DNA of 64,000 nucleotides from an uncultured virus (IMG/VR IMGVR_UViG_3300042516_002158) (Duplodnaviria; Heunggongvirae; Uroviricota; Caudoviricetes), in the IMG/VR virus record IMGVR_UViG_3300042516_002158; one strand, given 5' to 3'. Of the stretch, positions 1 to 8,557 are shown one piece after another (the stretch's first letter is position 1; every line of letters begins with the position of its first letter). The notes beneath the pieces were generated by a model. It ran no database searches. It had not been told where the DNA came from and worked only from the letters and a program-made list of their open reading frames with translations. The position numbers and the translations under genes are program-made.

Positions 1-43
1 AATCATTACAAATGACTTGCTCTACCAGCTGAGCTACTCGGGC
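1..43 (-). tRNA. tRNA-Thr(UGU), 3' part truncated by window edge
   Basis: GCCCGAGTAGCTCAGCTGGTAGAGC D-arm; anticodon arm AGTCA-TTTGTAA-TGATT. Confidence 0.85.
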
Positions 44-48
44 TATTG

Positions 49-120
49 TACTCAGTACGGGATTCGAACCCGTATTACATCCGTGAAAGGGATGTGACCT
101 AACCCTTAGTCGAACTGAGC
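49..120 (-). tRNA. tRNA-Glu(UUC)
   Basis: Cloverleaf; anticodon arm CATCC-CTTTCAC-GGATG; T-loop TTCGAAT. Confidence 0.92.
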
Positions 121-123
121 GTT

Positions 124-234
124 TAAGGAAAGTAAAAGATGGGTGCGTGGACATTTACTTTTATGATTGGCATTACTTTGGATTTTACCCTCCTCACGCC
201 ATAGTTTCCTATTTAGTTTCCCAATCAACCTTAT
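124..234 (-). ncRNA. Candidate ~110-nt structured RNA with pseudoknot potential
   Basis: Closing TAAGG/CCTTA, TGATTGG/CCAATCA, ATAG-GAAA-CTAT, AAAGTAAA/TTTACTTT; own promoter at 239-270. Confidence 0.55.
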
Positions 235-238
235 AAAG

Positions 239-270
239 TAAATATACGATAAATAATTTACTTTACCAAA
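239..270 (-). promoter_or_regulatory. Bacteroidota primary-sigma-type promoter
   Basis: TTTG-N20-TATATTTA, close to TTTG/TAnnTTTG consensus. Confidence 0.65.
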
Positions 271-275
271 TATTG

Positions 276-350
276 TACCCGTAATAGGAGTCGAACCTAT
301 AATTGTATGGCTTCTAAGACCACTGCGTATGCCAATTCCGCCATACGGGT
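276..350 (-). tRNA. tRNA-Leu(UAG), short variable loop
   Basis: Anticodon arm GTGGT-CTTAGAA-GCCAT; acceptor ACCCGTA/TACGGGT. Confidence 0.85.
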
Positions 351-356
351 ATTTTG

Positions 357-428
357 GTTGAACGATGGGAATCGAACCCACACACAAAGTGCCACAAACT
401 TTCGCCCTACCATTAGGCTACGCTCAAC
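357..428 (-). tRNA. tRNA-His(GUG)
   Basis: AAAGT-TTGTGGC-ACTTT; encoded G-1 opposite C73. Confidence 0.9.
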
Positions 429-435
429 ATATAAG

Positions 436-506
436 AGGTGTGTATTGGAATCGAACCAATGTAAAAGGTTTTGCAGACCTTCACCTAGCCACTCGGACAA
501 CTCACC
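436..506 (-). tRNA. tRNA-Cys(GCA)
   Basis: AAGGT-CTGCAAA-ACCTT; U73. Confidence 0.9.
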
Positions 507-512
507 TTATTG

Positions 513-585
513 TAGTTTCAGTAGGATTCGAACCTACACTCTAACATTCGTAGTGTTATGTGATAATCCATTTCACTATGAAACT
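513..585 (-). tRNA. tRNA-Arg(ACG)
   Basis: TAACA-CTACGAA-TGTTA; T-loop TTCGAAT. Confidence 0.9.
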
Positions 586-590
586 ATTTG

Positions 591-661
591 CACCGGTTTA
601 CAGACTCGAACTGTAATCAAAGGTTTTGGAGACCTACATGCTACCATTGCACCAAACCGGA
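591..661 (-). tRNA. tRNA-Trp(CCA)
   Basis: TAGGT-CTCCAAA-ACCTT; G73. Confidence 0.88.
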
Positions 662-667
662 TGTGTG

Positions 668-740
668 TAGGAATAACAAGATTCGAACTTGTGACATCTA
701 ACGTATCAGATTAGCACTCTACCAGCTGAGTTATATTCCT
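668..740 (-). tRNA. tRNA-Ile(GAU)
   Basis: CTAAT-CTGATAC-GTTAG. Confidence 0.9.
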
Positions 741-745
741 ATATG

Positions 746-819
746 TTGGGAATGCAGGATTCGAACCTACGGCCTCTAGCTCCCAAAGCTAGCGCGATAC
801 CGGACTACGCTAATTCCCA
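746..819 (-). tRNA. tRNA-Pro(UGG)
   Basis: CTAGC-TTTGGGA-GCTAG. Confidence 0.92.
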
Positions 820-824
820 TTTTG

Positions 825-897
825 TTATCGGACCTGGACTCGAACCAAAACTAATAGAATCAAAATCTATTGTGCTGACCAATTACACCATCCGACA
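825..897 (-). tRNA. tRNA-Gln(UUG)
   Basis: ATAGA-TTTTGAT-TCTAT. Confidence 0.9.
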
Positions 898-909
898 ATT
901 TCCAATTTT

Positions 910-972
910 GTTATCACCATTTCCCGGTGTGCTAATACACTAAACTTCCAGGCGTGTTCCGGATTGGTAACC
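910..972 (-). ncRNA. Small GC-richer structured element inside tRNA array
   Basis: GTTACCA/TGGTGAT closing stem, TCCGG/CCGGG, GTGT-ATTAGC-ACAC hairpin. Confidence 0.4.
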
Positions 973-977
973 GTTTG

Positions 978-1050
978 AGCAGATGAGAGGAATCGAACCT
1001 CCGTCTCCTACTTGGAAGGAAGGAGTAATGAGCCATTATACGACATCTGC
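978..1050 (-). tRNA. tRNA-Gly(UCC)
   Basis: CCTTC-CTTCCAA-GTAGG; U73. Confidence 0.9.
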
Positions 1051-1068
1051 ATATCAAATAAACAATTG

Positions 1069-1140
1069 AGGGAAGGGAGAATTACGATATCTCGACCTGA
1101 TGATTAACAGTCATCTGCTCTGCCGCTGAGCTACCATCCC
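1069..1140 (-). tRNA. tRNA-Asn(GUU), atypical T-loop
   Basis: GATGA-CTGTTAA-TCATC; T-loop ATCGTAA. Confidence 0.8.
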
Positions 1141-1178
1141 AAAAACAAAAAACCCCAACTAATTAAAGTCAGGGTTTT
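1141..1178 (-). terminator. Intrinsic terminator (putative attenuator) immediately upstream of tRNA array
   Basis: AACCCTGACT-TTAATT-AGTTGGGGTT followed by TTTTGTTTTT. Confidence 0.8.
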
Positions 1179-1209
1179 CTAAAATTCTTAATATAAATCT
1201 AGCCTAACT

Positions 1210-1278
1210 TTACATATCTCTGCCACCCCAAATCTGATTCGGTGTGCTACAAAGTGTATGTAATGTTAATGCTTTCAT
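1210..1278 (-). CDS. Putative 22-aa leader peptide MKALTLHTLCSTPNQIWGGRDM
   Basis: ATG...TAA read by hand; ATAGTTATA motif 5 nt upstream; stop region complementary to terminator 5' arm. Confidence 0.7.
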   Translation of the reverse strand: MKALTLHTLCSTPNQIWGGRDM

Positions 1279-1304
1279 TTGTTATAACTATAATCGAATT
1301 AAAA

Positions 1305-1374
1305 AAGTAATCAATCTTCAAAATACGCCACGTCAAGTCATGCTCCGGTTAATACAAGCCTCGATAAATTACTT
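1305..1374 (-). ncRNA. Small structured element
   Basis: AAGTAAT(T)TATC ... GAT(TG)ATTACTT closing stem around a GC-richer core, followed by U-tract. Confidence 0.35.
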
Positions 1375-1376
1375 TG

Positions 1377-1417
1377 CTATCATTATTGGAATCGAACCAA
1401 CTCTAACCATTATGATA
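1377..1417 (-). ncRNA. tRNA-like minihelix (acceptor + T arm, no anticodon arm)
   Basis: TATCAT/ATGATA stem, GTTGG-TTCGATT-CCAAT T arm, TGGTTAGA D-loop-like linker, ends G-CAA like the neighbouring tRNAs. Confidence 0.65.
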
Positions 1418-1424
1418 AAATAAA

Positions 1425-2292
1425 ATAGGGATGAGAATACTCCATATTGAGAACCAGCTTTAGAAAGATTATTAGTTCCTTCCGTTTCCACCACCTTTTG
1501 AGTAGTACCAATTCAATGTGGGTTAATTGAGTCAACCAATCTTTGAGTTATAAACTACTCTCTTTTTACTACGCTTCTTTAAACCTATCAGCCTAATTAA
1601 TCCTTGCGGGATTAGAAGTTTTTCGAAAGAATCACAGACTTCTTGCGGAAGTATCGTGGCTAAGAACAACTCTTAACTATGTACACACCTTTCGTCTATA
1701 ACTGGCAAACACTTAAGCTTAATTTTTAATTGTAGTTTTTTATACCGAAATAAAAAATTGAGTTTTAGTTTTGTAGAATGATTCAAGTAGTGGTTTGCCA
1801 CCAGCTCCGTTATCTTTTGAACAACGAAATACTATACTACTCGATGCAATATCCCTACTGCGTTATTTTGAGTCATCTTCATTTATAATCGTTGGTACGA
1901 TTTATAAAAGGATAGTAACAGCACCACCTGTACACAGTCTTATCTTACTACCTTTCGTATAGTTTGATGTTAAGACCACTCTAATAATGAATACCGCAAT
2001 TATGTAGAGGGATTAAGTCTACACTTCTTACTGATATTCTATGGGTTATTCTTATTGGTGTTCCCACCTCAACTAAAGTATCTACAATACCCTAGTTACT
2101 CAAACTCTTCAATGGTAGTGTTACCCCCACTTACAAAGCCTAAATAATATCCCACTTGCATACTTAAGCTATTCTCCCTTACGGGGAAGGAGCCGCCGGC
2201 GTATCACTTAATACACCCACTTTATCCTACTTTCGTAGTTTATTTAACGACCATATGCGGCCGGTAGCTATTATGTAACACAAGGTTACTAT
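1425..2292 (-). ncRNA. Large (~870 nt) highly structured RNA, GOLLD-like (family assignment unconfirmed)
   Basis: No long ORF; many GNRA hairpins (CTAC-GAAA-GTAG, CCC-GTAA-GGG, several GCAA-capped stems); long-range CTGTGTACA/TGTACATAG; tRNA context; own promoter and boxA. Confidence 0.6.
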
Positions 2293-2305
2293 ATAGAATA
2301 TTTTT

Positions 2306-2373
2306 AATAATTTAAAGAACTTCTTTGTTGTTATATATATGTAAATATAAATTAAAACATTAAATTTACCAAA
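2306..2373 (-). promoter_or_regulatory. Bacteroidota-type promoter plus boxA-like element
   Basis: TTTG-N20-TATATTTA (2342-2373), then AAGTTCTTTAAA. Confidence 0.6.
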
Positions 2374-2396
2374 TATTTTTACAACTTTTTTCTCCC

Positions 2397-2442
2397 AAGA
2401 TTGAATACCGAGTATCTTTCATCACCTATAAGTTTCAATCTT
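2397..2442 (-). ncRNA. Small structured element directly after a promoter
   Basis: Perfect 9-bp AAGATTGAA/TTCAATCTT stem; promoter at 2449-2480. Confidence 0.35.
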
Positions 2443-2448
2443 ATATAG

Positions 2449-2480
2449 TAAAGATACATTAAGTTTTTCAATCTACCAAA
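2449..2480 (-). promoter_or_regulatory. Bacteroidota-type promoter
   Basis: TTTG-N20-TATCTTTA. Confidence 0.6.
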
Positions 2481-2499
2481 TTTCTTTGGGGATTTTTTT

Positions 2500-2582
2500 G
2501 TTAAGGTGTCCGGCTTTATGCCTTTCCTTAATGGTCTGGCTCCACTCAATCGGTTTTATTATTTGATGGCTTCAACCCTAAC
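2500..2582 (-). ncRNA. Small structured element 3' of tRNA-Met
   Basis: GTTAGGGT/ACCTTAAC closing stem; GGC-ATAAA-GCC hairpin. Confidence 0.4.
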
Positions 2583-2587
2583 ATTTG

Positions 2588-2659
2588 TTGCGGTGAGCGG
2601 ATTCGAACCACTGACCCCTAGGTTATGAGCCTAGTGAGCTACCTCTGCTCTACACCGCG
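2588..2659 (-). tRNA. tRNA-Met(CAU), initiator-like
   Basis: CTAGG-CTCATAA-CCTAG; C1:A72 mismatch (CGCGGTG/CACCGCA). Confidence 0.88.
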
Positions 2660-2665
2660 ATATTG

Positions 2666-3031
2666 TGGAGATGACGAGACTCGAACTCGTGTCTTACAAA
2701 GAACTAATAATACCAGCATATCACACGTTTAGATAAAGTTTAATCTTATTCACTTTCCAAAATAATTGAGGTCGGATGGTTAGTCCAACTTTCCACCAAC
2801 CGATTTAAAGTTTCGGTAAACTTAGTTTCACATTCTATTTAAAGTCCCATGATGTGTACGGGATTGGTTATGCTGCTACAGCGTAATCCATACCTACGAA
2901 GGCCATAAGGTCATCGTAAGTCATAGTTGACATTTCGTCAGTTATTGTTTTGTGCAGATTTAAGGAGAACTAGCACTTCTCTCCACGTGTGGTACTACCA
3001 TTTACATTGCAATCAATTCCATAGCATCCCC
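2666..3031 (-). ncRNA. ssrA: tmRNA
   Basis: GGGGATG/CATCTCC-A acceptor with G3:U; T arm ACGAG-TTCGAGT-CTCGT; tag frame after AATAACT ends YAVAA-stop. Confidence 0.92.
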
Positions 3032-3087
3032 AATATTTCAATGAACTCTCTTTAACAAAGATACAACAATTATCTTAATTTACCAAA
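3031..3087 (-). promoter_or_regulatory. Bacteroidota-type promoter plus boxA-like element for the tmRNA unit
   Basis: Perfect TTTG-N20-TATCTTTG (3056-3087); AGTTCATTGAAATATTG just before tmRNA. Confidence 0.75.
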
Positions 3088-3137
3088 TATTTAAGGTATT
3101 TTTTTATAACTTGTTGATTATCAACCTTTTATAAATA

Positions 3138-4262
3138 TTAATATCTTTTAAACCCAATTGTAGGTCTATCTTCCTCTGATTTGTCTTGCTGATTATCTAT
3201 GTTATAAATCTCAGCTAATGTCAATCCTTCGGTTGTTTCAGTTTGTTTATTCAATTTCTTTAGTAAAGTTTGTGTATCTTCTAAACTTAACTTACCAAAT
3301 TTATGTTCTGCAATCAATCTACCCTTTCTTAATAATGCACTATCAATCTTTTCTTTATCCATATTAAAAGTAGCAATTACATGTATGTTTAAAATATCAC
3401 CTAAAATACCATCACTTAAGTTCAATAGATTAGAAACTCCAACTGAACTACCACTATTATTTCTATCTCCGATTACTTTCTCAGCATCTTCAATAATCAA
3501 AACACAATCTTTGTTCTCCATTAAGAAAGGAACAAAATCTGGATTAACAATACTCTCTGCCATAATTGGTGGTAAGAATAAAACTTTCTTTCCCAATTCA
3601 TGTGCTAAGTATTTCAAATAAGTTGTCTTTCCTGTTCCTGGCAATCCGTGTAACAATACTAATTTAGCTTTGTTATCGTTTTTACCTTGAATAGTTTCAA
3701 CAATATTTGTATGCATCTTACTAAAATCAGTTCCGTAATTTAAATCTAAATCAATTATTGGTTTACCCAAATCAAATGCTTCAGTTTCAAACCCATATGA
3801 TGTTGATTTTAATAAATGAATTTGTCCTTTCATATCTTTCTTTGTAAAAGTTGATAGTTCAGGTAATCGTTTGAACACATCATCAATAGGTGATGTAGTA
3901 GTAATCCATCCCTTTAAAGGTGCTGATTTTAACTTTGATATTTTTTCTTCATCTGGTTCTTCACCAGGATAATCATCATCTGCTCTATTTGAAAAACCAA
4001 TTACCGCTACGTGTTCACCTATTTGTAATTCAAACATTTCAGTAACAGAAAATGTATCAGGTTCATAGTAATGTCTTTTTTCATAAATAGATTTTGCTCC
4101 ATTATTTTTTAAATATTCAATTACTTTCGTATCGAACACAACACCACTACCATAGTAAACACAATTAACTGAATGTCCTGTCTTTTCTGATAGGTATTTC
4201 TCAACTGGAAATTCTCCACCATGTGCTGGACTATATAATCTGTAATTCTCTTTTGGTAACAT
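3138..4262 (-). CDS. AAA+ ATPase
   Basis: Walker A GLPGTGKT, Walker B IIEDAE, SRH DSALLRKGRL. Confidence 0.9.
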   Translation of the reverse strand: MLPKENYRLYSPAHGGEFPVEKYLSEKTGHSVNCVYYGSGVVFDTKVIEYLKNNGAKSIYEKRHYYEPDTFSVTEMFELQIGEHVAVIGFSNRADDDYPGEEPDEEKISKLKSAPLKGWITTTSPIDDVFKRLPELSTFTKKDMKGQIHLLKSTSYGFETEAFDLGKPIIDLDLNYGTDFSKMHTNIVETIQGKNDNKAKLVLLHGLPGTGKTTYLKYLAHELGKKVLFLPPIMAESIVNPDFVPFLMENKDCVLIIEDAEKVIGDRNNSGSSVGVSNLLNLSDGILGDILNIHVIATFNMDKEKIDSALLRKGRLIAEHKFGKLSLEDTQTLLKKLNKQTETTEGLTLAEIYNIDNQQDKSEEDRPTIGFKRY

Positions 4263-4265
4263 TTT

Positions 4266-5024
4266 TTAAATTTTATTTTTTAATAATTCTGCTATTGCTC
4301 TGTGTCCTTTTGGTGATGGATGTCCTCTTTCTTCAAACATATCTACATCATTGAACTCTTTTAAATACGTTGTTAAGTTTATATCCTTAAATGATTGTGG
4401 AATATGTTTATATAAATCTAATAAACCAAAATAATCTTCAATATCATCAAACTGATTAGATACTTTATCAGCATTTATATTTTTGTTTACATCTGCTATC
4501 TCAGCAATATTATATTCAAAGAATGCATTTATACAAAGATACGGAATATTATTTGATTTAAGAAAACTTGTTAGGGATATTATTTGTTGAAATATTCTAA
4601 CGAAAGAAGGTGCTAAATGTGAATGATTTATAACATATTTATTATCATTTTGTTTATTTGCATCAGTTCTACCCCATTTATCTTTATCTGACCACAAATG
4701 TTCTCTAATAAAAACCTCACCATCAAAATAATCAAATCTAGTCGGTGCAGTAAATGAAAGTAAAACAAACATTTCATCTACTTTAACATAACCTAATTCT
4801 TCATTGTATATTGGTTCACCATTTAAGAATTTACAAACATCTCTCATAGTATTTCTAAAAATTCTATCATTAGATATACCACTACTAGCTACATTAAAAT
4901 CTACCAAATCTTTTTCTTTGGCTATTAATGTAGAGAATCTATTAGTTCTGTCCTTTAATTCTGAACCCCAACTAACTGAATCTCCGTTTGTGTATAATAC
5001 TTTTAGTTTTTTCGCCATACCCAC
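4266..5024 (-). CDS. SGNH/GDSL-like hydrolase or acyltransferase
   Basis: GDS block I, SN block, C-terminal GHPSPKGH. Confidence 0.65.
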   Translation of the reverse strand: MGMAKKLKVLYTNGDSVSWGSELKDRTNRFSTLIAKEKDLVDFNVASSGISNDRIFRNTMRDVCKFLNGEPIYNEELGYVKVDEMFVLLSFTAPTRFDYFDGEVFIREHLWSDKDKWGRTDANKQNDNKYVINHSHLAPSFVRIFQQIISLTSFLKSNNIPYLCINAFFEYNIAEIADVNKNINADKVSNQFDDIEDYFGLLDLYKHIPQSFKDINLTTYLKEFNDVDMFEERGHPSPKGHRAIAELLKNKI

Positions 5025-6235
5025 ATTGGTTCACAAAATGTTTTATCAGCTGCTTCTCTTGCTTTTTCTAATGCTTCTTCGGTGTATCTATCCTCATCAC
5101 CCTCTATTATTGCTCCTGCACCTGCAGAACCAGGTCTTTTTGCCATTTCCATACCCATACATCCTAAGTATTCTGCCCCCTCTTGTTTCTCCAAGAATTC
5201 GTTCATAGGAGTAGTGATTGCTCTATACCCTTTATCCGTTCCTTTTGAACTTGCATAAACATCTGCAATATTTACAATCAATGTTCCACCCTTTTTAAGA
5301 GTTTTCCAAATCTTTCCCAATGCTCTGTGTAAAAATAATTCATTCCACTCATCAATTGTTTTATATCTAATCCAACTTTGAGTATCATCATATGAATATC
5401 GTTCTACACTAAAGTAAGGTGGACTTGTAAATGCAATATCAAAGTATTCATCATATCCTTCGTAATCAAAATCTTCCGCAGGACTCTCCACAAAAGTAGA
5501 TTGTTTTTCAATTTCAAAAAATCCATTATTCTTTTCGTAGAAGTCTGCCTGTTGTCTATAAATTGGATGGTTTTCTTTACGAGGATCTATACCAACATAA
5601 TGTTTACCATATTCACTTGCATAGAAACCACATAATCTATCACCCCATCCTGCTGCAAAATCTAATACGGTCTCTGCTTTGAAATAATCGTATAATGCTT
5701 TTGCTACATTTGGTTTGAACTGAGAACAAATATATTTACGAAGTGATAATGCTACTCTTAAACTTCCTCTATTTACTTCATCAAACTTTAAAGTATACAT
5801 TGCACCCATTAAGGTATACATAAACTCATAGGTTCTCCAAGTTCTATCAGGACCTGGTGATACCGTTCCATCTACACCCCATCTATTAGCTTGTTGGAAA
5901 TAATTTGATGCTTGGTTTCCAGTATTAACTCGTCTAAAATATAATTGCTTATCTTCAAATCCTAATCCGAATTTACTATCACCCGCTTTACGGATAAACC
6001 ACTCATCATCTCTAAGTAATTCATTCCATCTAGTTGCTTTCAATGCTAGATATTCTTTTCTTGCATCTTCTTCACTAATTTCTTGATATGGAAGTGGGTA
6101 GTCCATAGCTATTTTAGCTAAGGACTCACACACATCTTCTTTACTATAAGTTTCTTTGATATGATTCCATTGTTCTGCGTTAATATACAGATATGGAGAC
6201 ATATTCTTAAATTGATCAAAATAATCTAAATACAT
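5003..6235 (-). CDS. DNA amino-methyltransferase (N6-A/N4-C)
   Basis: Motif I LDFAAGWG, motif IV FTSPPY. Confidence 0.8.
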   Translation of the reverse strand: MYLDYFDQFKNMSPYLYINAEQWNHIKETYSKEDVCESLAKIAMDYPLPYQEISEEDARKEYLALKATRWNELLRDDEWFIRKAGDSKFGLGFEDKQLYFRRVNTGNQASNYFQQANRWGVDGTVSPGPDRTWRTYEFMYTLMGAMYTLKFDEVNRGSLRVALSLRKYICSQFKPNVAKALYDYFKAETVLDFAAGWGDRLCGFYASEYGKHYVGIDPRKENHPIYRQQADFYEKNNGFFEIEKQSTFVESPAEDFDYEGYDEYFDIAFTSPPYFSVERYSYDDTQSWIRYKTIDEWNELFLHRALGKIWKTLKKGGTLIVNIADVYASSKGTDKGYRAITTPMNEFLEKQEGAEYLGCMGMEMAKRPGSAGAGAIIEGDEDRYTEEALEKAREAADKTFCEPMWVWRKN

Positions 6236-6729: not shown

Positions 6730-8557
6730 ATGCTACTTCACCACTTAAATCTGTGTTATCTTCTAACTCAATCACTTGTGATAAATCTACATCATGCAGA
6801 ACTTTCATTAATTCTTCATACTTTTCTTTTGTACAATCTTCAAATGGTGCTTGAATGTAAGTTCCACCATCGTAAGGTAATACTGAAAGTCCGTTGTAAT
6901 ATTCTTTATTTTCCCACATCCACTCACCAACTGCAATCCACTCATGTTCTCTAATAGAAACCGTTGCAGATACATTGTGTGAATTGTTTCCGTTTCTGTG
7001 ACCTGGTTTAATCCACTCACTATGAACTCTTTTAACTCTCTCTAATAATTGAATTGGAGATTCAGTTCTAAAGATTGCATCCGATGGTGCTTTTTGTGGA
7101 ATACCAATTACCGCAGTATCATGTGGTCTAAAGTATTCATCTTCTACTAATTCAGGATGATTTAATAATAAATAATTGTAGATTGATTCGTTCTTACCTA
7201 CTCTTACTCTACGAATATAGTAATCATTATGCCAAGCGTGAATACCACTACTTGTACCTAATGTTAATGAGGTTGTTCCTGCTGGTTTAACCGTTGTAGT
7301 TCTTGCTGAATGATTGATACCTAAGATATCTGCTACTCTTTTATTTTCCTCTTTTACAACTTTTGCCGCTTCTTTCATATTCATTTTCAAAACTGCACCA
7401 CTTCCGATACCTGTCATAGATACACCAATAAGTGCATCTTTTTCAGTTGTTCTTTGCCAGATTGGACGAAGATAGTGGAAATCAGTATAACCTGCTTGTA
7501 ATGTTCCGATGAATGATGCTGCTTTTACTCTTGCATTTAAATCATCCTGGTCAATTACATCACTTACATTCACTTCACATAAGTTACAAAATTGGAAAGG
7601 TCTTAATGCAATTTCACAACATGGGTTAGTTCCCCAATCTTTGTCGTTTGATAAGTAGATACCAGGCTCACCTGCTCCACTTGCTTCAATTCTTTTCCAT
7701 AAGTCCATAAAATACGATTTGTCAATTTTATGTCTCATTAATACTGCTGAGTTATTTGCTCTACCTCTTTGTGGATTTGTTTCCCACCATGCACCACTCT
7801 TACAACTAATCATTTGTTCGTCATTTGCAGAGAACAAAGAAATCAATGCTGCTCTACGGATACCACCTGCCAATACTGCATCTGCAATATGGCACACAAT
7901 ATCATGAACTTCAATTGGTTTTAATTTATCACCATCTTTCTTTGAATCTAAGATACCTTCAATCTTAATCAAACATTCTTTTAGGGGTTGAGGTCCTGGT
8001 GCTTTACCACCACTTGTAATTAAACGAGCACCTTTAGCTCTAATATCTCTAAAATCAAATACTGGCTTTGAACCACCAAAGAAATATGATTTTACTAATA
8101 CTGAAATTGAATCCGCCCATCCTTCGATAGAATCTCCAATAAGAAATCTACGAGTTTTGTCTGCATTTGGTTTTCTAATTTCAGGCAATGCATCTACATG
8201 ATGTTTTTGTACTGAATATCCTACACCTGTTCCACCTAAAAGTAGGAACATAATTTCTGAAAATACTCTCCAATCATCAATCGGTGCAAATGCACAATTG
8301 TAGATTCTATTTGGTGACATTTCAATTGGTTTACCGGCGAACTGCATTGAACGCATTGATGGTAAAACTTTCTTGTCATAAACGAATTTATACGTTTCTC
8401 TAATTTCTTGCTCTAAATTTGGATACGTTTTAATATGCATATTCATATTTCTAGTAACCAATTCGTCCCATGTTTCTCTCCTTTTTAATTCCGGTTGATA
8501 TTTTGCGTATTTCATATACACCGTAATGTCCGAAAGGATTCTTTGTGAAATGTCCAT
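6701..8557 (-). CDS. nrdJ: Class II (adenosylcobalamin-dependent) ribonucleotide reductase
   Basis: TNPCCEI, VKPAGT, C-terminal CAGGAC; no adjacent beta subunit. Confidence 0.88.
   Translation of the reverse strand: MDISQRILSDITVYMKYAKYQPELKRRETWDELVTRNMNMHIKTYPNLEQEIRETYKFVYDKKVLPSMRSMQFAGKPIEMSPNRIYNCAFAPIDDWRVFSEIMFLLLGGTGVGYSVQKHHVDALPEIRKPNADKTRRFLIGDSIEGWADSISVLVKSYFFGGSKPVFDFRDIRAKGARLITSGGKAPGPQPLKECLIKIEGILDSKKDGDKLKPIEVHDIVCHIADAVLAGGIRRAALISLFSANDEQMISCKSGAWWETNPQRGRANNSAVLMRHKIDKSYFMDLWKRIEASGAGEPGIYLSNDKDWGTNPCCEIALRPFQFCNLCEVNVSDVIDQDDLNARVKAASFIGTLQAGYTDFHYLRPIWQRTTEKDALIGVSMTGIGSGAVLKMNMKEAAKVVKEENKRVADILGINHSARTTTVKPAGTTSLTLGTSSGIHAWHNDYYIRRVRVGKNESIYNYLLLNHPELVEDEYFRPHDTAVIGIPQKAPSDAIFRTESPIQLLERVKRVHSEWIKPGHRNGNNSHNVSATVSIREHEWIAVGEWMWENKEYYNGLSVLPYDGGTYIQAPFEDCTKEKYEELMKVLHDVDLSQVIELEDNTDLSGEVACAGGACEVK

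What the first reader, a model, noticed from the sequence alone, without database searches (positions are those of the whole stretch)
1141..1291. Leader-peptide attenuator gating the phage tRNA array: a putative sensor of tRNA shortage
Seen: motif ATAGTTATA (1283-1291), then ATG of a 22-codon ORF MKALTLHTLCSTPNQIWGGRDM (1278-1210), then an intrinsic terminator (1178-1141) abutting the first tRNA. The 10 nt starting at the stop codon (UAAAGUUAGG, 1212-1203) can pair over 10 bp (one G-U) with the terminator 5' arm and loop (CCUGACUUUA, 1173-1164), giving a mutually exclusive antiterminator. The 10 tRNAs between the terminator and the next promoter (270) carry N, G, Q, P, I, W, R, C, H and L. All 10 amino acids, including rare W, C and H, occur in the leader, which has 16 different residues in 22. 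Glu is absent from the leader, and tRNA-Glu lies after the separate promoter at 239-270. Established: this is trp/his-type attenuation logic, where a ribosome at the stop masks the antiterminator and a ribosome stalled upstream frees it. Inference: instead of tandem codons for one amino acid, this leader samples many tRNAs, so the phage would make its own tRNAs only when host tRNAs are depleted (starvation or anticodon-nuclease defence). I am not aware of such a system described for phage tRNA arrays. Caveats: Gly (GGT/GGC) and Arg (AGA) leader codons do not match the phage anticodons, and stalls in the last few codons might still cover the antiterminator.
Basis: partly seen in the sequence, partly recalled or inferred. 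Interest (0 to 1): 0.93.

Follow-up and report, generated by a model that had tools for sequence, protein, structure and literature searches.

The report
Leader-peptide attenuator before phage tRNA genes
A tiny translated gene wired to a stop/go RNA switch sits between a giant GOLLD RNA gene and the tRNA genes of this freshwater phage and its relatives, and it probably lets the phage make its own tRNAs when ribosomes are reading slowly.

Summary
The window alone is weak evidence: the 10-bp stop-codon/terminator complementarity is matched by 12 of 300 shuffles.

Relatives make the case. Two scans of viral contigs gave 59 related loci and 29 distinct leader peptides of 22-53 codons. Each starts at the same ATG, ends in an intrinsic terminator and is followed by tRNA or tRNA-like sequence. 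Nine different lengths between two RNA landmarks all keep the reading frame, so the ORF is under coding selection.

Four segments pair alternatively:
- R1:R2
- R2:R3, the antiterminator
- R3:R4, the terminator

All three helices covary, and the antiterminator is as well supported as the terminator.

I read this as a ribosome-dependent transcription attenuator gating the tRNA array (confidence about 0.6). That the signal is tRNA shortage remains inference. Support for the leader mirroring its array is weak and confounded.

A GOLLD RNA gene lies directly upstream, and the window's 22-codon leader is the shortest member of the family.

Four literature searches found no such control described for tRNA genes. 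Earlier notes of this scan describe similar elements on other DNA, including this same family.

The parts
1285..1314 (-). Promoter-like site TTGATT-16-TATAGT, with the AT-rich box TATAGTTA (1292-1285) ending 6 nt before the ATG
   Evidence: Consensus scan. A TATA(T/A)(T/A)T(A/T)-like box 4-9 nt upstream of the ATG recurs in most of the 29 leader variants. Function as a promoter is inferred, not shown.
1210..1278 (-). Leader ORF of 22 codons (MKALTLHTLCSTPNQIWGGRDM) plus stop TAA. It is the shortest member of a 22-53 codon family.
   Evidence: The reading frame is kept across 9 length classes.
1265..1273 (-). R1: the 5' strand of the leader hairpin base (AGCAUUAAC, codons 2-5). It pairs with R2 as the anti-antiterminator.
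   Evidence: MFE fold. R1:R2 is 96.6% paired over 7 columns in 29 sequences, with 14 double-change cells, reached by 0 of 1000 shuffles.
1213..1264 (-). Interior of the leader hairpin: UUACAUA pairs with UAUGUAA, and there is an apical CCGAAU/AUUUGG hairpin. It carries the His, Pro and Trp-Gly codons.
   Evidence: The apical stem differs in sequence between relatives but still pairs (read from the alignment; not counted formally).
1203..1212 (-). R2: UAAAGUUAGG, starting at the stop codon. It pairs either with R1 or with R3 (as the antiterminator).
   Evidence: R2:R3 on alignment A3 is 94.8% paired, with 17 double-change cells, reached by 0 of 500 shuffles.
1164..1173 (-). R3: CCUGACUUUA, made of the terminator 5' arm and part of the loop. 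It is the partner of R2 in the antiterminator.
1141..1181 (-). Intrinsic terminator: stem 1180-1167 with 1160-1147 (R3:R4), loop UUAAUU, U tract to 1141.
   Evidence: -16.0 kcal/mol. It is 98.9% paired in relatives, with 9 double-change cells, reached by 1 of 500 shuffles.
275..1140 (-). tRNA array gated by the terminator: Asn, Gly, Gln, Pro, Ile, Trp, Arg, Cys, His, Leu. It continues with Glu at 120-48 and a cut tRNA at 43-1.
   Evidence: In close relatives 18-19 tRNAs follow the terminator.
1428..1844 (-). GOLLD RNA, conserved 3' region (context; directly upstream of the leader).
   Evidence: Rfam RF02032, 276.8 bits, E 6e-79. GOLLD lies upstream of the leader in 15 of 16 related loci scanned.
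1378..1417 (-). tRNA-like acceptor/T-arm minihelix just after GOLLD (context).
   Evidence: Read from the sequence. A full tRNA-Gly occupies this place in L026 and L027.

Best explanation
This is a ribosome-dependent (leader-peptide) transcription attenuator that decides whether RNA polymerase runs on into the phage tRNA array.

Layout. A short ORF is transcribed, probably from the AT-rich box just upstream or by run-on from GOLLD. Its RNA holds four segments. R1 (codons 2-5) pairs with R2. R2 can instead pair with R3. R3 otherwise pairs with R4 to form the terminator, which abuts the first tRNA.

Proposed working. If the lead ribosome has reached the end of the ORF when R3 and R4 emerge, it covers R2. 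In the window's form the stop codon lies inside R2. In most longer forms R2 ends 12-15 nt before the stop. The terminator then forms and transcription stops. If the ribosome is delayed anywhere earlier in the ORF, R2 is free and R1 is held open. R2:R3 then forms and the tRNA genes are transcribed.

Consequence. The phage would raise its tRNA output when decoding is slow, for example when charged tRNA is short or host tRNA is damaged, and lower it again once decoding recovers.

Shown: the anatomy, its conservation, the preserved reading frame and the covariation of all three helices.

Inferred: translation itself, the direction of the switch and the physiological signal.
For: Family and placement:
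- Two independent scans of viral contigs found the family. One was anchored on the peptide's N-terminus and found 30 of 46 loci. The other was anchored on R2/R3/R4 and found the ORF in 29 of 29 loci. Together they give 29 distinct peptides.
- A tRNA follows the terminator in every evaluable case. In the first set the first tRNA lies 62-75 nt after the stop; the exceptions are L049 (158 nt) and two loci cut by contig ends. Rfam calls a tRNA right after L049's terminator. In the second set ARAGORN calls a tRNA within 40 nt in 26 of 29 loci.

Coding constraint:
- The distance from the Trp codon to R2 takes 9 lengths in 25 long forms (20 to 83 nt), all in the same frame class.
- The other two frames carry 129 and 117 stops over the same 1184 codons.

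Alternative pairing:
- In all 22 distinct leaders the homologous R2 is the best partner of the terminator 5' arm. For 4 of them my helix parser failed and this was seen only in the later table.
- R2:R3 is 94.8% paired with 17 double-change cells, reached by 0 of 500 shuffles.
- R3:R4 is 98.9% paired with 9 double-change cells, reached by 1 of 500 shuffles.
- R1:R2 is 96.6% paired with 14 double-change cells, reached by 0 of 1000 shuffles.
- At one column R2:R3 is G-C in 15 sequences and A-U in 14, never a wobble or mismatch. The terminator tolerates U-G at that column in 11.
- On a tree built without these columns, R2 and R3 changed together in 3 of 3 independent pairs. R4 changed with them in 0-1 of 3.

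Geometry:
- R2 overlaps the stop in the 4 short forms. It ends 15 nt before the stop in 14 of 25 long forms and 12 nt before it in 2. The distance from stop to R3 is 26-36 nt.

Constrained folds of transcripts cut just before R4:
- With a ribosome at A-site codons 4-13, the antiterminator forms in 28-29 of 29.
- With a ribosome at the stop, the full antiterminator survives in 7 of 29 using a footprint reaching 18 nt upstream. It survives in 18 of 29 using 15 nt.
- The window's form behaves exactly as the classical model predicts.

Other:
- Phage genes here mostly lack Shine-Dalgarno motifs (5 of 31 have one), so the leader's bare ATG is normal for this phage.
Against: - There is no direct evidence of translation, termination or read-through. 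The metatranscriptome data were contigs only and gave no cover over the leader.
- In the long forms equilibrium folding gives the antiterminator even with no ribosome (25 of 29). A ribosome at the stop fails to remove it in 7-18 of 29, depending on the footprint assumed. So the switch there rests on kinetics or steric effects that I could not model.
- With R4 present, the terminator is the MFE structure in most modelled ribosome states. This is expected for attenuators, but it means the thermodynamics do not discriminate.
- There are no tandem regulatory codons.
- Covariation traces to few independent events, about 3 at the best column, with sign test p = 0.25. The rows are related, and 14 of the 29 distinct sequences came only from a pattern that fixed most R2/R3/R4 letters.
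- The peptide's conserved residues coincide with RNA stems. An RNA-only switch in which the frame is kept open for another reason is therefore not excluded.
Confidence: 0.6

Rival explanations
1. An RNA switch that is not read by ribosomes. The R1:R2, R2:R3 and R3:R4 alternatives would be set by a phage or host protein, by a tRNA, or by the neighbouring GOLLD RNA or its partners. The ORF would be translated for another reason, or not at all.
For: Nearly all conserved peptide positions lie in RNA stems. The element is linked to GOLLD in 15 of 16 loci scanned. In the long forms the antiterminator is the equilibrium state without any ribosome (25 of 29). R2 and R4 share the motif GUUAG(G/A)GG, which could be a binding site.
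Against: Frame preservation across 9 length classes reaching as far as R2 is hard to explain without translation. The stop codon keeps a narrow distance from R2. No Rfam family, T-box included, matches the region.
Confidence: 0.15
2. An ordinary small protein gene with its own promoter and terminator. The peptide acts in trans and the complementarity of R2 to the terminator is incidental.
For: The ORF is conserved and open, with a recurring C-terminus (LEDTDVG or LNDVDLG) in several long forms.
Against: Length ranges from 22 to 53 residues, and the window clade lacks the whole C-terminal half. The non-stem residues are hypervariable. R2 tracks R3 more faithfully than R4 does. The R2 codon flips between Glu and Gly as R3 changes. 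There is no room for a promoter between the terminator and the first tRNA. The peptide matches no Pfam or PHROG family (best E-values 0.047 and 0.012).
Confidence: 0.1
3. A constitutive, leaky terminator that simply insulates the very strongly expressed GOLLD unit from the tRNA array. There would be no regulated switch.
For: GOLLD-derived contigs are very deep in four metatranscriptome studies. The terminator is strong, -14 to -24 kcal/mol.
Against: This does not explain the conserved ORF, the R1:R2 and R2:R3 covariation, or the fixed geometry between stop codon and R2.
Confidence: 0.1

Closest known systems
Leader-peptide transcription attenuators of enterobacterial amino-acid operons (trpL, hisL, leuL, thrL, pheL; the multivalent ilv and thr leaders). 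Named from my own knowledge.
   Same: A short translated ORF. Four segments with 1:2, 2:3 and 3:4 alternatives. An intrinsic terminator directly before the regulated genes. A stop codon placed at or near segment 2.
   Different: It controls tRNA genes of a phage, not biosynthetic enzymes. There is no run of codons for one amino acid. In most members segment 2 lies inside the ORF, 12-30 nt before the stop, rather than after it. The leader is 22-53 codons long and highly structured throughout.
E. coli pyrBI leader, which senses the coupling between RNA polymerase and the ribosome (from my own knowledge).
   Same: The outcome depends on how closely the lead ribosome follows the polymerase along a leader ORF of about 44 codons, not on one amino acid. 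This is the closest analogue for a translation-speed timer.
   Different: In pyrBI the ribosome physically blocks the terminator hairpin, and close coupling gives read-through. Here the ORF ends 26-36 nt before R3, an antiterminator helix exists, and the inferred sign is the opposite.
pheST leader (pheM) and T-box riboswitches, which control aminoacyl-tRNA synthetase genes according to tRNA charging (from my own knowledge).
   Same: A component of the decoding machinery is regulated by a read-out of decoding capacity through a terminator/antiterminator choice.
   Different: The pheM leader uses Phe codon runs. T-boxes bind tRNA directly and need no ORF. No T-box match was found here. Neither regulates tRNA genes.
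GOLLD RNA next to tRNA islands in phages. Kretsch et al., bioRxiv 10.1101/2024.12.08.627333; I read passages only.
   Same: GOLLD lies downstream of a tRNA-Met and next to a tRNA island, as that paper describes for GOLLD env-38.
   Different: The passages I read mention no leader ORF or attenuator between GOLLD and the tRNAs. The finding lies outside the Rfam GOLLD model.

Membership tests
Ribosome-mediated leader-peptide transcription attenuator (trp/his type) | A short ORF upstream of the regulated genes that is translated | tested here: inconclusive
   The ORF is conserved in 59 of 59 family loci, and the frame is kept across 9 length classes. Translation itself was not observable, because the RNA data were contigs with no cover here.
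Ribosome-mediated leader-peptide transcription attenuator (trp/his type) | An intrinsic terminator between the leader and the regulated genes | tested here: met
   Hairpin plus U tract at 1181-1141. It is kept in all 29 distinct variants at -14 to -24 kcal/mol and is 98.9% paired.
Ribosome-mediated leader-peptide transcription attenuator (trp/his type) | An antiterminator helix (2:3) mutually exclusive with the terminator | tested here: met
   9-11 contiguous pairs in the variants. 94.8% paired, 17 double-change cells, reached by 0 of 500 shuffles.
Ribosome-mediated leader-peptide transcription attenuator (trp/his type) | An anti-antiterminator (1:2) whose 5' strand lies in the ORF, so that a ribosome can open it | tested here: met
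   R1 is codons 2-5. 96.6% paired, 14 double-change cells, reached by 0 of 1000 shuffles.
Ribosome-mediated leader-peptide transcription attenuator (trp/his type) | A stop codon placed so that a terminating ribosome masks segment 2 | tested here: inconclusive
   Met in the window and the 3 other 22-codon forms, where the stop lies inside R2. In long forms R2 ends 12-15 nt before the stop in 16 of 25 and 18-30 nt before it in 9 of 25. Whether R2 is masked depends on the footprint assumed.
Ribosome-mediated leader-peptide transcription attenuator (trp/his type) | Tandem or clustered codons for the amino acid that is sensed | tested here: not met
   None of the 29 peptides has a codon run. Only single His and Trp codons are invariant, and both lie in RNA stems.
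Ribosome-mediated leader-peptide transcription attenuator (trp/his type) | Read-through responds to the supply of charged tRNA | not testable with these tools
   This needs infection or reporter experiments.
T-box riboswitch | A match to the T-box covariance model (specifier loop, T-box sequence) | tested here: not met
   No T-box match in window 1-6000 at E up to 1.
GOLLD RNA (RF02032), for the upstream neighbour only | A match to the Rfam model above its gathering score | tested here: met
   276.8 bits against a cut-off of 150 at 1844-1428. The leader and terminator (1278-1141) lie outside the match.

The most novel reading that the evidence does not exclude
Phage tRNA arrays are under feedback control by decoding speed. 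The leader ORF acts as a timer that races the ribosome against RNA polymerase. Any slow codon, whether from starvation, codon mismatch with the host or host tRNA-cleaving defence, opens the gate to the tRNA genes. This would be the first attenuator known to control tRNA genes. It is physically coupled to GOLLD, an abundant cage-forming phage RNA of unknown function that is reported to pull down ribosomes. GOLLD, the leader and the tRNA array could therefore be one translation-management module.
Probability: 0.35. Interest if true: 0.88.

Novelty: new variant of a known kind. Interest (0 to 1): 0.8.

Why it matters
Why phages carry tRNA genes, and when they express them, is an open question. 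The usual answers are codon compensation, replacement of degraded host tRNA and escape from anticodon nucleases.

A conserved switch that ties transcription of the tRNA array to how fast a test ORF is decoded would give a concrete regulatory logic that can be tested. It would extend classical attenuation from amino-acid operons to tRNA genes. It would also supply a defined reporter: a leader, terminator and tRNA cassette of about 130-225 nt.

The element also gives the enigmatic GOLLD RNA a fixed neighbour with a translation-linked role, which may help in finding what GOLLD does.

Four full-text searches found no description of a leader-peptide attenuator before tRNA genes. The searched library lacks most subscription journals, so this does not prove that none is in print.

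Tried and rejected
- **Own genome.** It is not held. The nearest record, G001, is identical over window 1000-2000 and adds nothing.
- **Annotated phage collection.** Blastn gave only three short hits: two GOLLD pieces in huge uncultured phages and one tRNA-Asn.
- **Metatranscriptomes.** Twenty RNA runs hold 21-29% of the words of window 900-2600. Laying contigs from four studies showed deep cover of 1392-2354, which is GOLLD. There was none at 1178-1284 and little at 1285-1391. These are contigs, not reads, so the missing cover says nothing about the leader. No DNA run was laid.
- **Full-transcript constrained folds.** The terminator is the MFE structure in most modelled ribosome states, so equilibrium folding with R4 present cannot test the switch.
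- **Peptide family searches.** Nothing passed a threshold. The best hits were PHROG E 0.012 and Pfam DUF732 E 0.047, which is below its cut-off.
- **Does the leader mirror its array?**
  - The first 4-11 tRNAs behind 24 of the 29 leaders carry amino acids found in the leader in 139 of 142 cases. Other amino acids are found in 305 of 338 cases.
  - A leader matches its own array better than permuted leaders do (0.982 against 0.914, reached by 0 of 5000 permutations).
  - For the first 13 or first 22 codons there is no signal (3132 and 3494 of 5000 permutations reach the observed value).
  - The test is confounded by relatedness, leader length and partial sampling of the arrays.
  - In the window clade the leader holds 14 of the 15 amino acids of the full array of relative L009, and 2 of the 5 others. 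By my own hypergeometric arithmetic p is about 0.03, and the test was chosen after seeing the data.
- **Rows dropped.** Sixteen of the 46 loci were set aside because their peptides matched only the search pattern. I did not check them for terminators or tRNAs.
- **Parser failure.** My helix parser failed on 4 of 22 leaders. These were resolved.
- **His as the sensed codon.** The CAT codon is invariant and is placed so that a stalled ribosome would cover R1. I did not adopt this reading. It is a single codon, it lies in an RNA stem, and the first scan's pattern required it. The second scan did not require it and still found it in 29 of 29 loci.
- **The 79-nt spacer at 898-976.** It is not significantly structured (z = -0.73).

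Full report
**What is in the window**

All features lie on the minus strand. Upstream to downstream, the layout is:
- an AAA-ATPase-like gene at 4262-3138
- a phage tmRNA at 3031-2665
- tRNA-Met at 2659-2587
- about 740 nt of unassigned sequence
- an Rfam GOLLD match at 1844-1428 (276.8 bits)
- a 287-nt gap
- a tRNA array starting at 1140

According to passages of Kretsch et al. (bioRxiv 10.1101/2024.12.08.627333), the Rfam-type conserved part of GOLLD is its 3' region. GOLLD genes lie near tRNA islands, and one studied example lies downstream of a tRNA-Met. So the 740 nt are probably the GOLLD 5' region, and the finding lies just beyond GOLLD's 3' end.

The window belongs to a large myovirus. 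It encodes a tail sheath, T4-like fibres, a UvsX-like recombinase, ribonucleotide reductase and a major head protein. Related complete records are 195-237 kb. Only 5 of 31 long genes have a Shine-Dalgarno-like motif.

**Checking the observation**

In the window alone the complementarity is marginal: -12.0 kcal/mol, reached by 12 of 300 shuffles. The leader plus terminator folds with z = -5.63.

The ORF is itself a long hairpin. Its base pairs codons 2-5 (R1, 1273-1265) with the stop-codon segment (R2, 1212-1203). This is the "1:2" element that a classical attenuator needs.

**Relatives**

A search with the neighbouring ATPase gave 23 syntenic loci. GOLLD was found in 14 of them; the rest ended too early. 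Aligning the gap between GOLLD and the first tRNA from 7 loci showed the same ATG followed by longer ORFs in diverged relatives.

Two further scans followed.
- A pattern built on the peptide's N-terminus gave 46 loci, of which 30 belong to the family.
- A pattern built on R2, R3 and R4, which leaves the N-terminus free, gave 29 loci. All 29 have the ORF.

Together there are 29 distinct peptides of 22-53 residues. A tRNA, mostly tRNA-Asn, follows the terminator within a few to about 35 nt wherever the contig allows. GOLLD lies upstream in 15 of 16 loci scanned. In some, 1-2 tRNAs sit between GOLLD and the leader.

**Is the ORF real?**

The distance from the invariant TGG to R2, a landmark defined by RNA pairing rather than by the frame, takes nine values in 25 long forms. 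All nine fall in the same frame class. The other two frames carry about one stop per 9-10 codons.

The amino-acid sequence, by contrast, is conserved mainly where the RNA is paired: the Leu-His-Thr, Pro and Trp-x-Gly codons and the Met/Cys-Phe codons. The R2 codon flips between Glu and Gly as R3 changes. This is the pattern expected of a leader peptide that has to be translated but whose product matters little.

**Alternative pairing**

Anchored tables show 9-11 contiguous R2:R3 pairs in the variants.

| Helix | Cells paired | Double-change cells | Shuffles reaching this |
|---|---|---|---|
| R2:R3 (antiterminator), alignment A3 | 94.8% | 17 | 0 of 500 |
| R3:R4 (terminator), alignment A3 | 98.9% | 9 | 1 of 500 |
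| R1:R2 (my own count, 7 columns) | 96.6% | 14 | 0 of 1000 |

Sliding the partner strand by one column or more drops pairing to 69% or less in all three helices.

At the most informative column R2:R3 is G-C in 15 sequences and A-U in 14, with no wobble. R1 follows, with C-G in 11 and U-A in 14. The terminator's own 3' arm lags behind, with U-G in 11.

On a tree built without these columns, R2 and R3 changed together in 3 of 3 independent contrasts, while R4 changed in 0-1 of them. Three events cannot reach significance (p = 0.25). The rows are also related, which the shuffle controls do not correct for.

**Geometry and folding models**

R2 overlaps the stop codon in the four 22-codon forms, including the window. 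It ends 15 nt before the stop in 14 of 25 long forms and 12 nt before it in 2. R3 starts 26-36 nt after the stop.

Transcripts were cut just before R4, the moment at which the choice is made.
- The window's form gives R1:R2 with no ribosome. It gives R2:R3 with a ribosome at any A-site codon from 2 to 20, and a masked R2 with a ribosome at the stop.
- Across all 29 variants, early ribosome positions give the antiterminator in 28-29.
- A ribosome at the stop leaves the full antiterminator in 7 of 29 with a footprint reaching 18 nt upstream of the A site. With a 15-nt footprint it leaves it in 18 of 29.
- In the long forms the antiterminator also forms with no ribosome (25 of 29). There the only modelled state that favours termination is a ribosome at the end of the ORF.

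This suggests a timer. Termination requires that the lead ribosome has finished the ORF by the time the polymerase reaches R3 and R4. Any delay gives read-through. This step is inference.

**What is sensed**

There are no codon runs. Close relatives carry 18-19 tRNAs behind the terminator. The window-type leader contains 14 of the 15 amino acids of one such array (L009). A general read-out of decoding speed fits the anatomy better than a sensor for one amino acid.

**Comparison with what is known, and novelty**

The element works like the trp/his class of attenuators and, as a timer, somewhat like pyrBI. It fails the class's criterion of clustered regulatory codons, and it regulates tRNA genes. 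I therefore file it as a new variant of a known kind.

Four full-text searches returned no description of such control for tRNA genes or next to GOLLD. Earlier notes of this scan report similar leader-plus-terminator elements before phage tRNA arrays on other DNA. Two of them share words with long-form members of this family. These are unchecked AI notes and I do not count them as evidence.

**Verdict**

| Question | Result |
|---|---|
| Observation | Confirmed |
| Confidence that it is a ribosome-dependent attenuator gating the tRNA array | About 0.6 |
| Probability that it senses slow decoding or tRNA shortage | About 0.35 |

Noticed in passing
window 1428-1844 (-), probably extending to about 2354: A full GOLLD RNA gene lies downstream of tmRNA and tRNA-Met. 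Contigs from four metatranscriptome studies cover 1392-2354 at summed depths of tens to thousands.
   Followed up: partly
window 1378-1417 (-): A tRNA-like minihelix (acceptor stem plus a T arm with a UUCGAUU loop, then GCA) lies directly after GOLLD. In L026 and L027 a complete tRNA-Gly sits at this position. It may mark the GOLLD 3' processing site.
   Followed up: no
window 1290-1377 (-): A conserved segment (GAGGCT.GTATTAACCGGAGCATGACTTGACGTGGCGTATTTTGAAG...) lies between the minihelix and the leader. It is kept in L005, L028, L031, L036, L060 and L064 but absent from the L016/L030 group, where the leader starts about 55-65 nt after GOLLD.
   Followed up: no
window 2665-3031 (-): A phage-encoded tmRNA with tag peptide DEMSTMTYDDLMAFVGMDYAVAA. 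It is conserved next to the ATPase gene in relatives.
   Followed up: no
window 898-976 (-); L005 about 7182-7248: A 79-nt spacer inside the array, between tRNA-Gly and tRNA-Gln. It recurs at a different array position in L005 and is absent in L014. Its fold is no better than shuffles (z = -0.73). It may be a small mobile insert.
   Followed up: partly
window 121-274 (-): A 154-nt gap between tRNA-Leu and tRNA-Glu holds a promoter-like TTGGTA-17-TATATT at 269-241. A similar gap is kept in relatives. It has no leader-like ORF and no terminator.
   Followed up: partly
loci L075-L103 and L029-L074: tRNA-Asn(GTT) is the first tRNA behind the terminator in 24 of 29 loci of the second scan and in most of the first. 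The reason is unknown.
   Followed up: no
L027 (record G003), between GOLLD and the leader: About 1 kb is inserted here. It holds a tRNA-Gly, an odd tRNA with an unassignable anticodon and the start of a protein gene, so GOLLD and the leader are not always adjacent.
   Followed up: no
upstream of the ATG in 29 leader variants: An AT-rich box ends 4-9 nt before the ATG. It reads TATAAATA in L030 and TATATTTA or TATATATT in others. From memory it resembles the T4 late-promoter box, and it would make the leader mRNA leaderless or nearly so.
   Followed up: no
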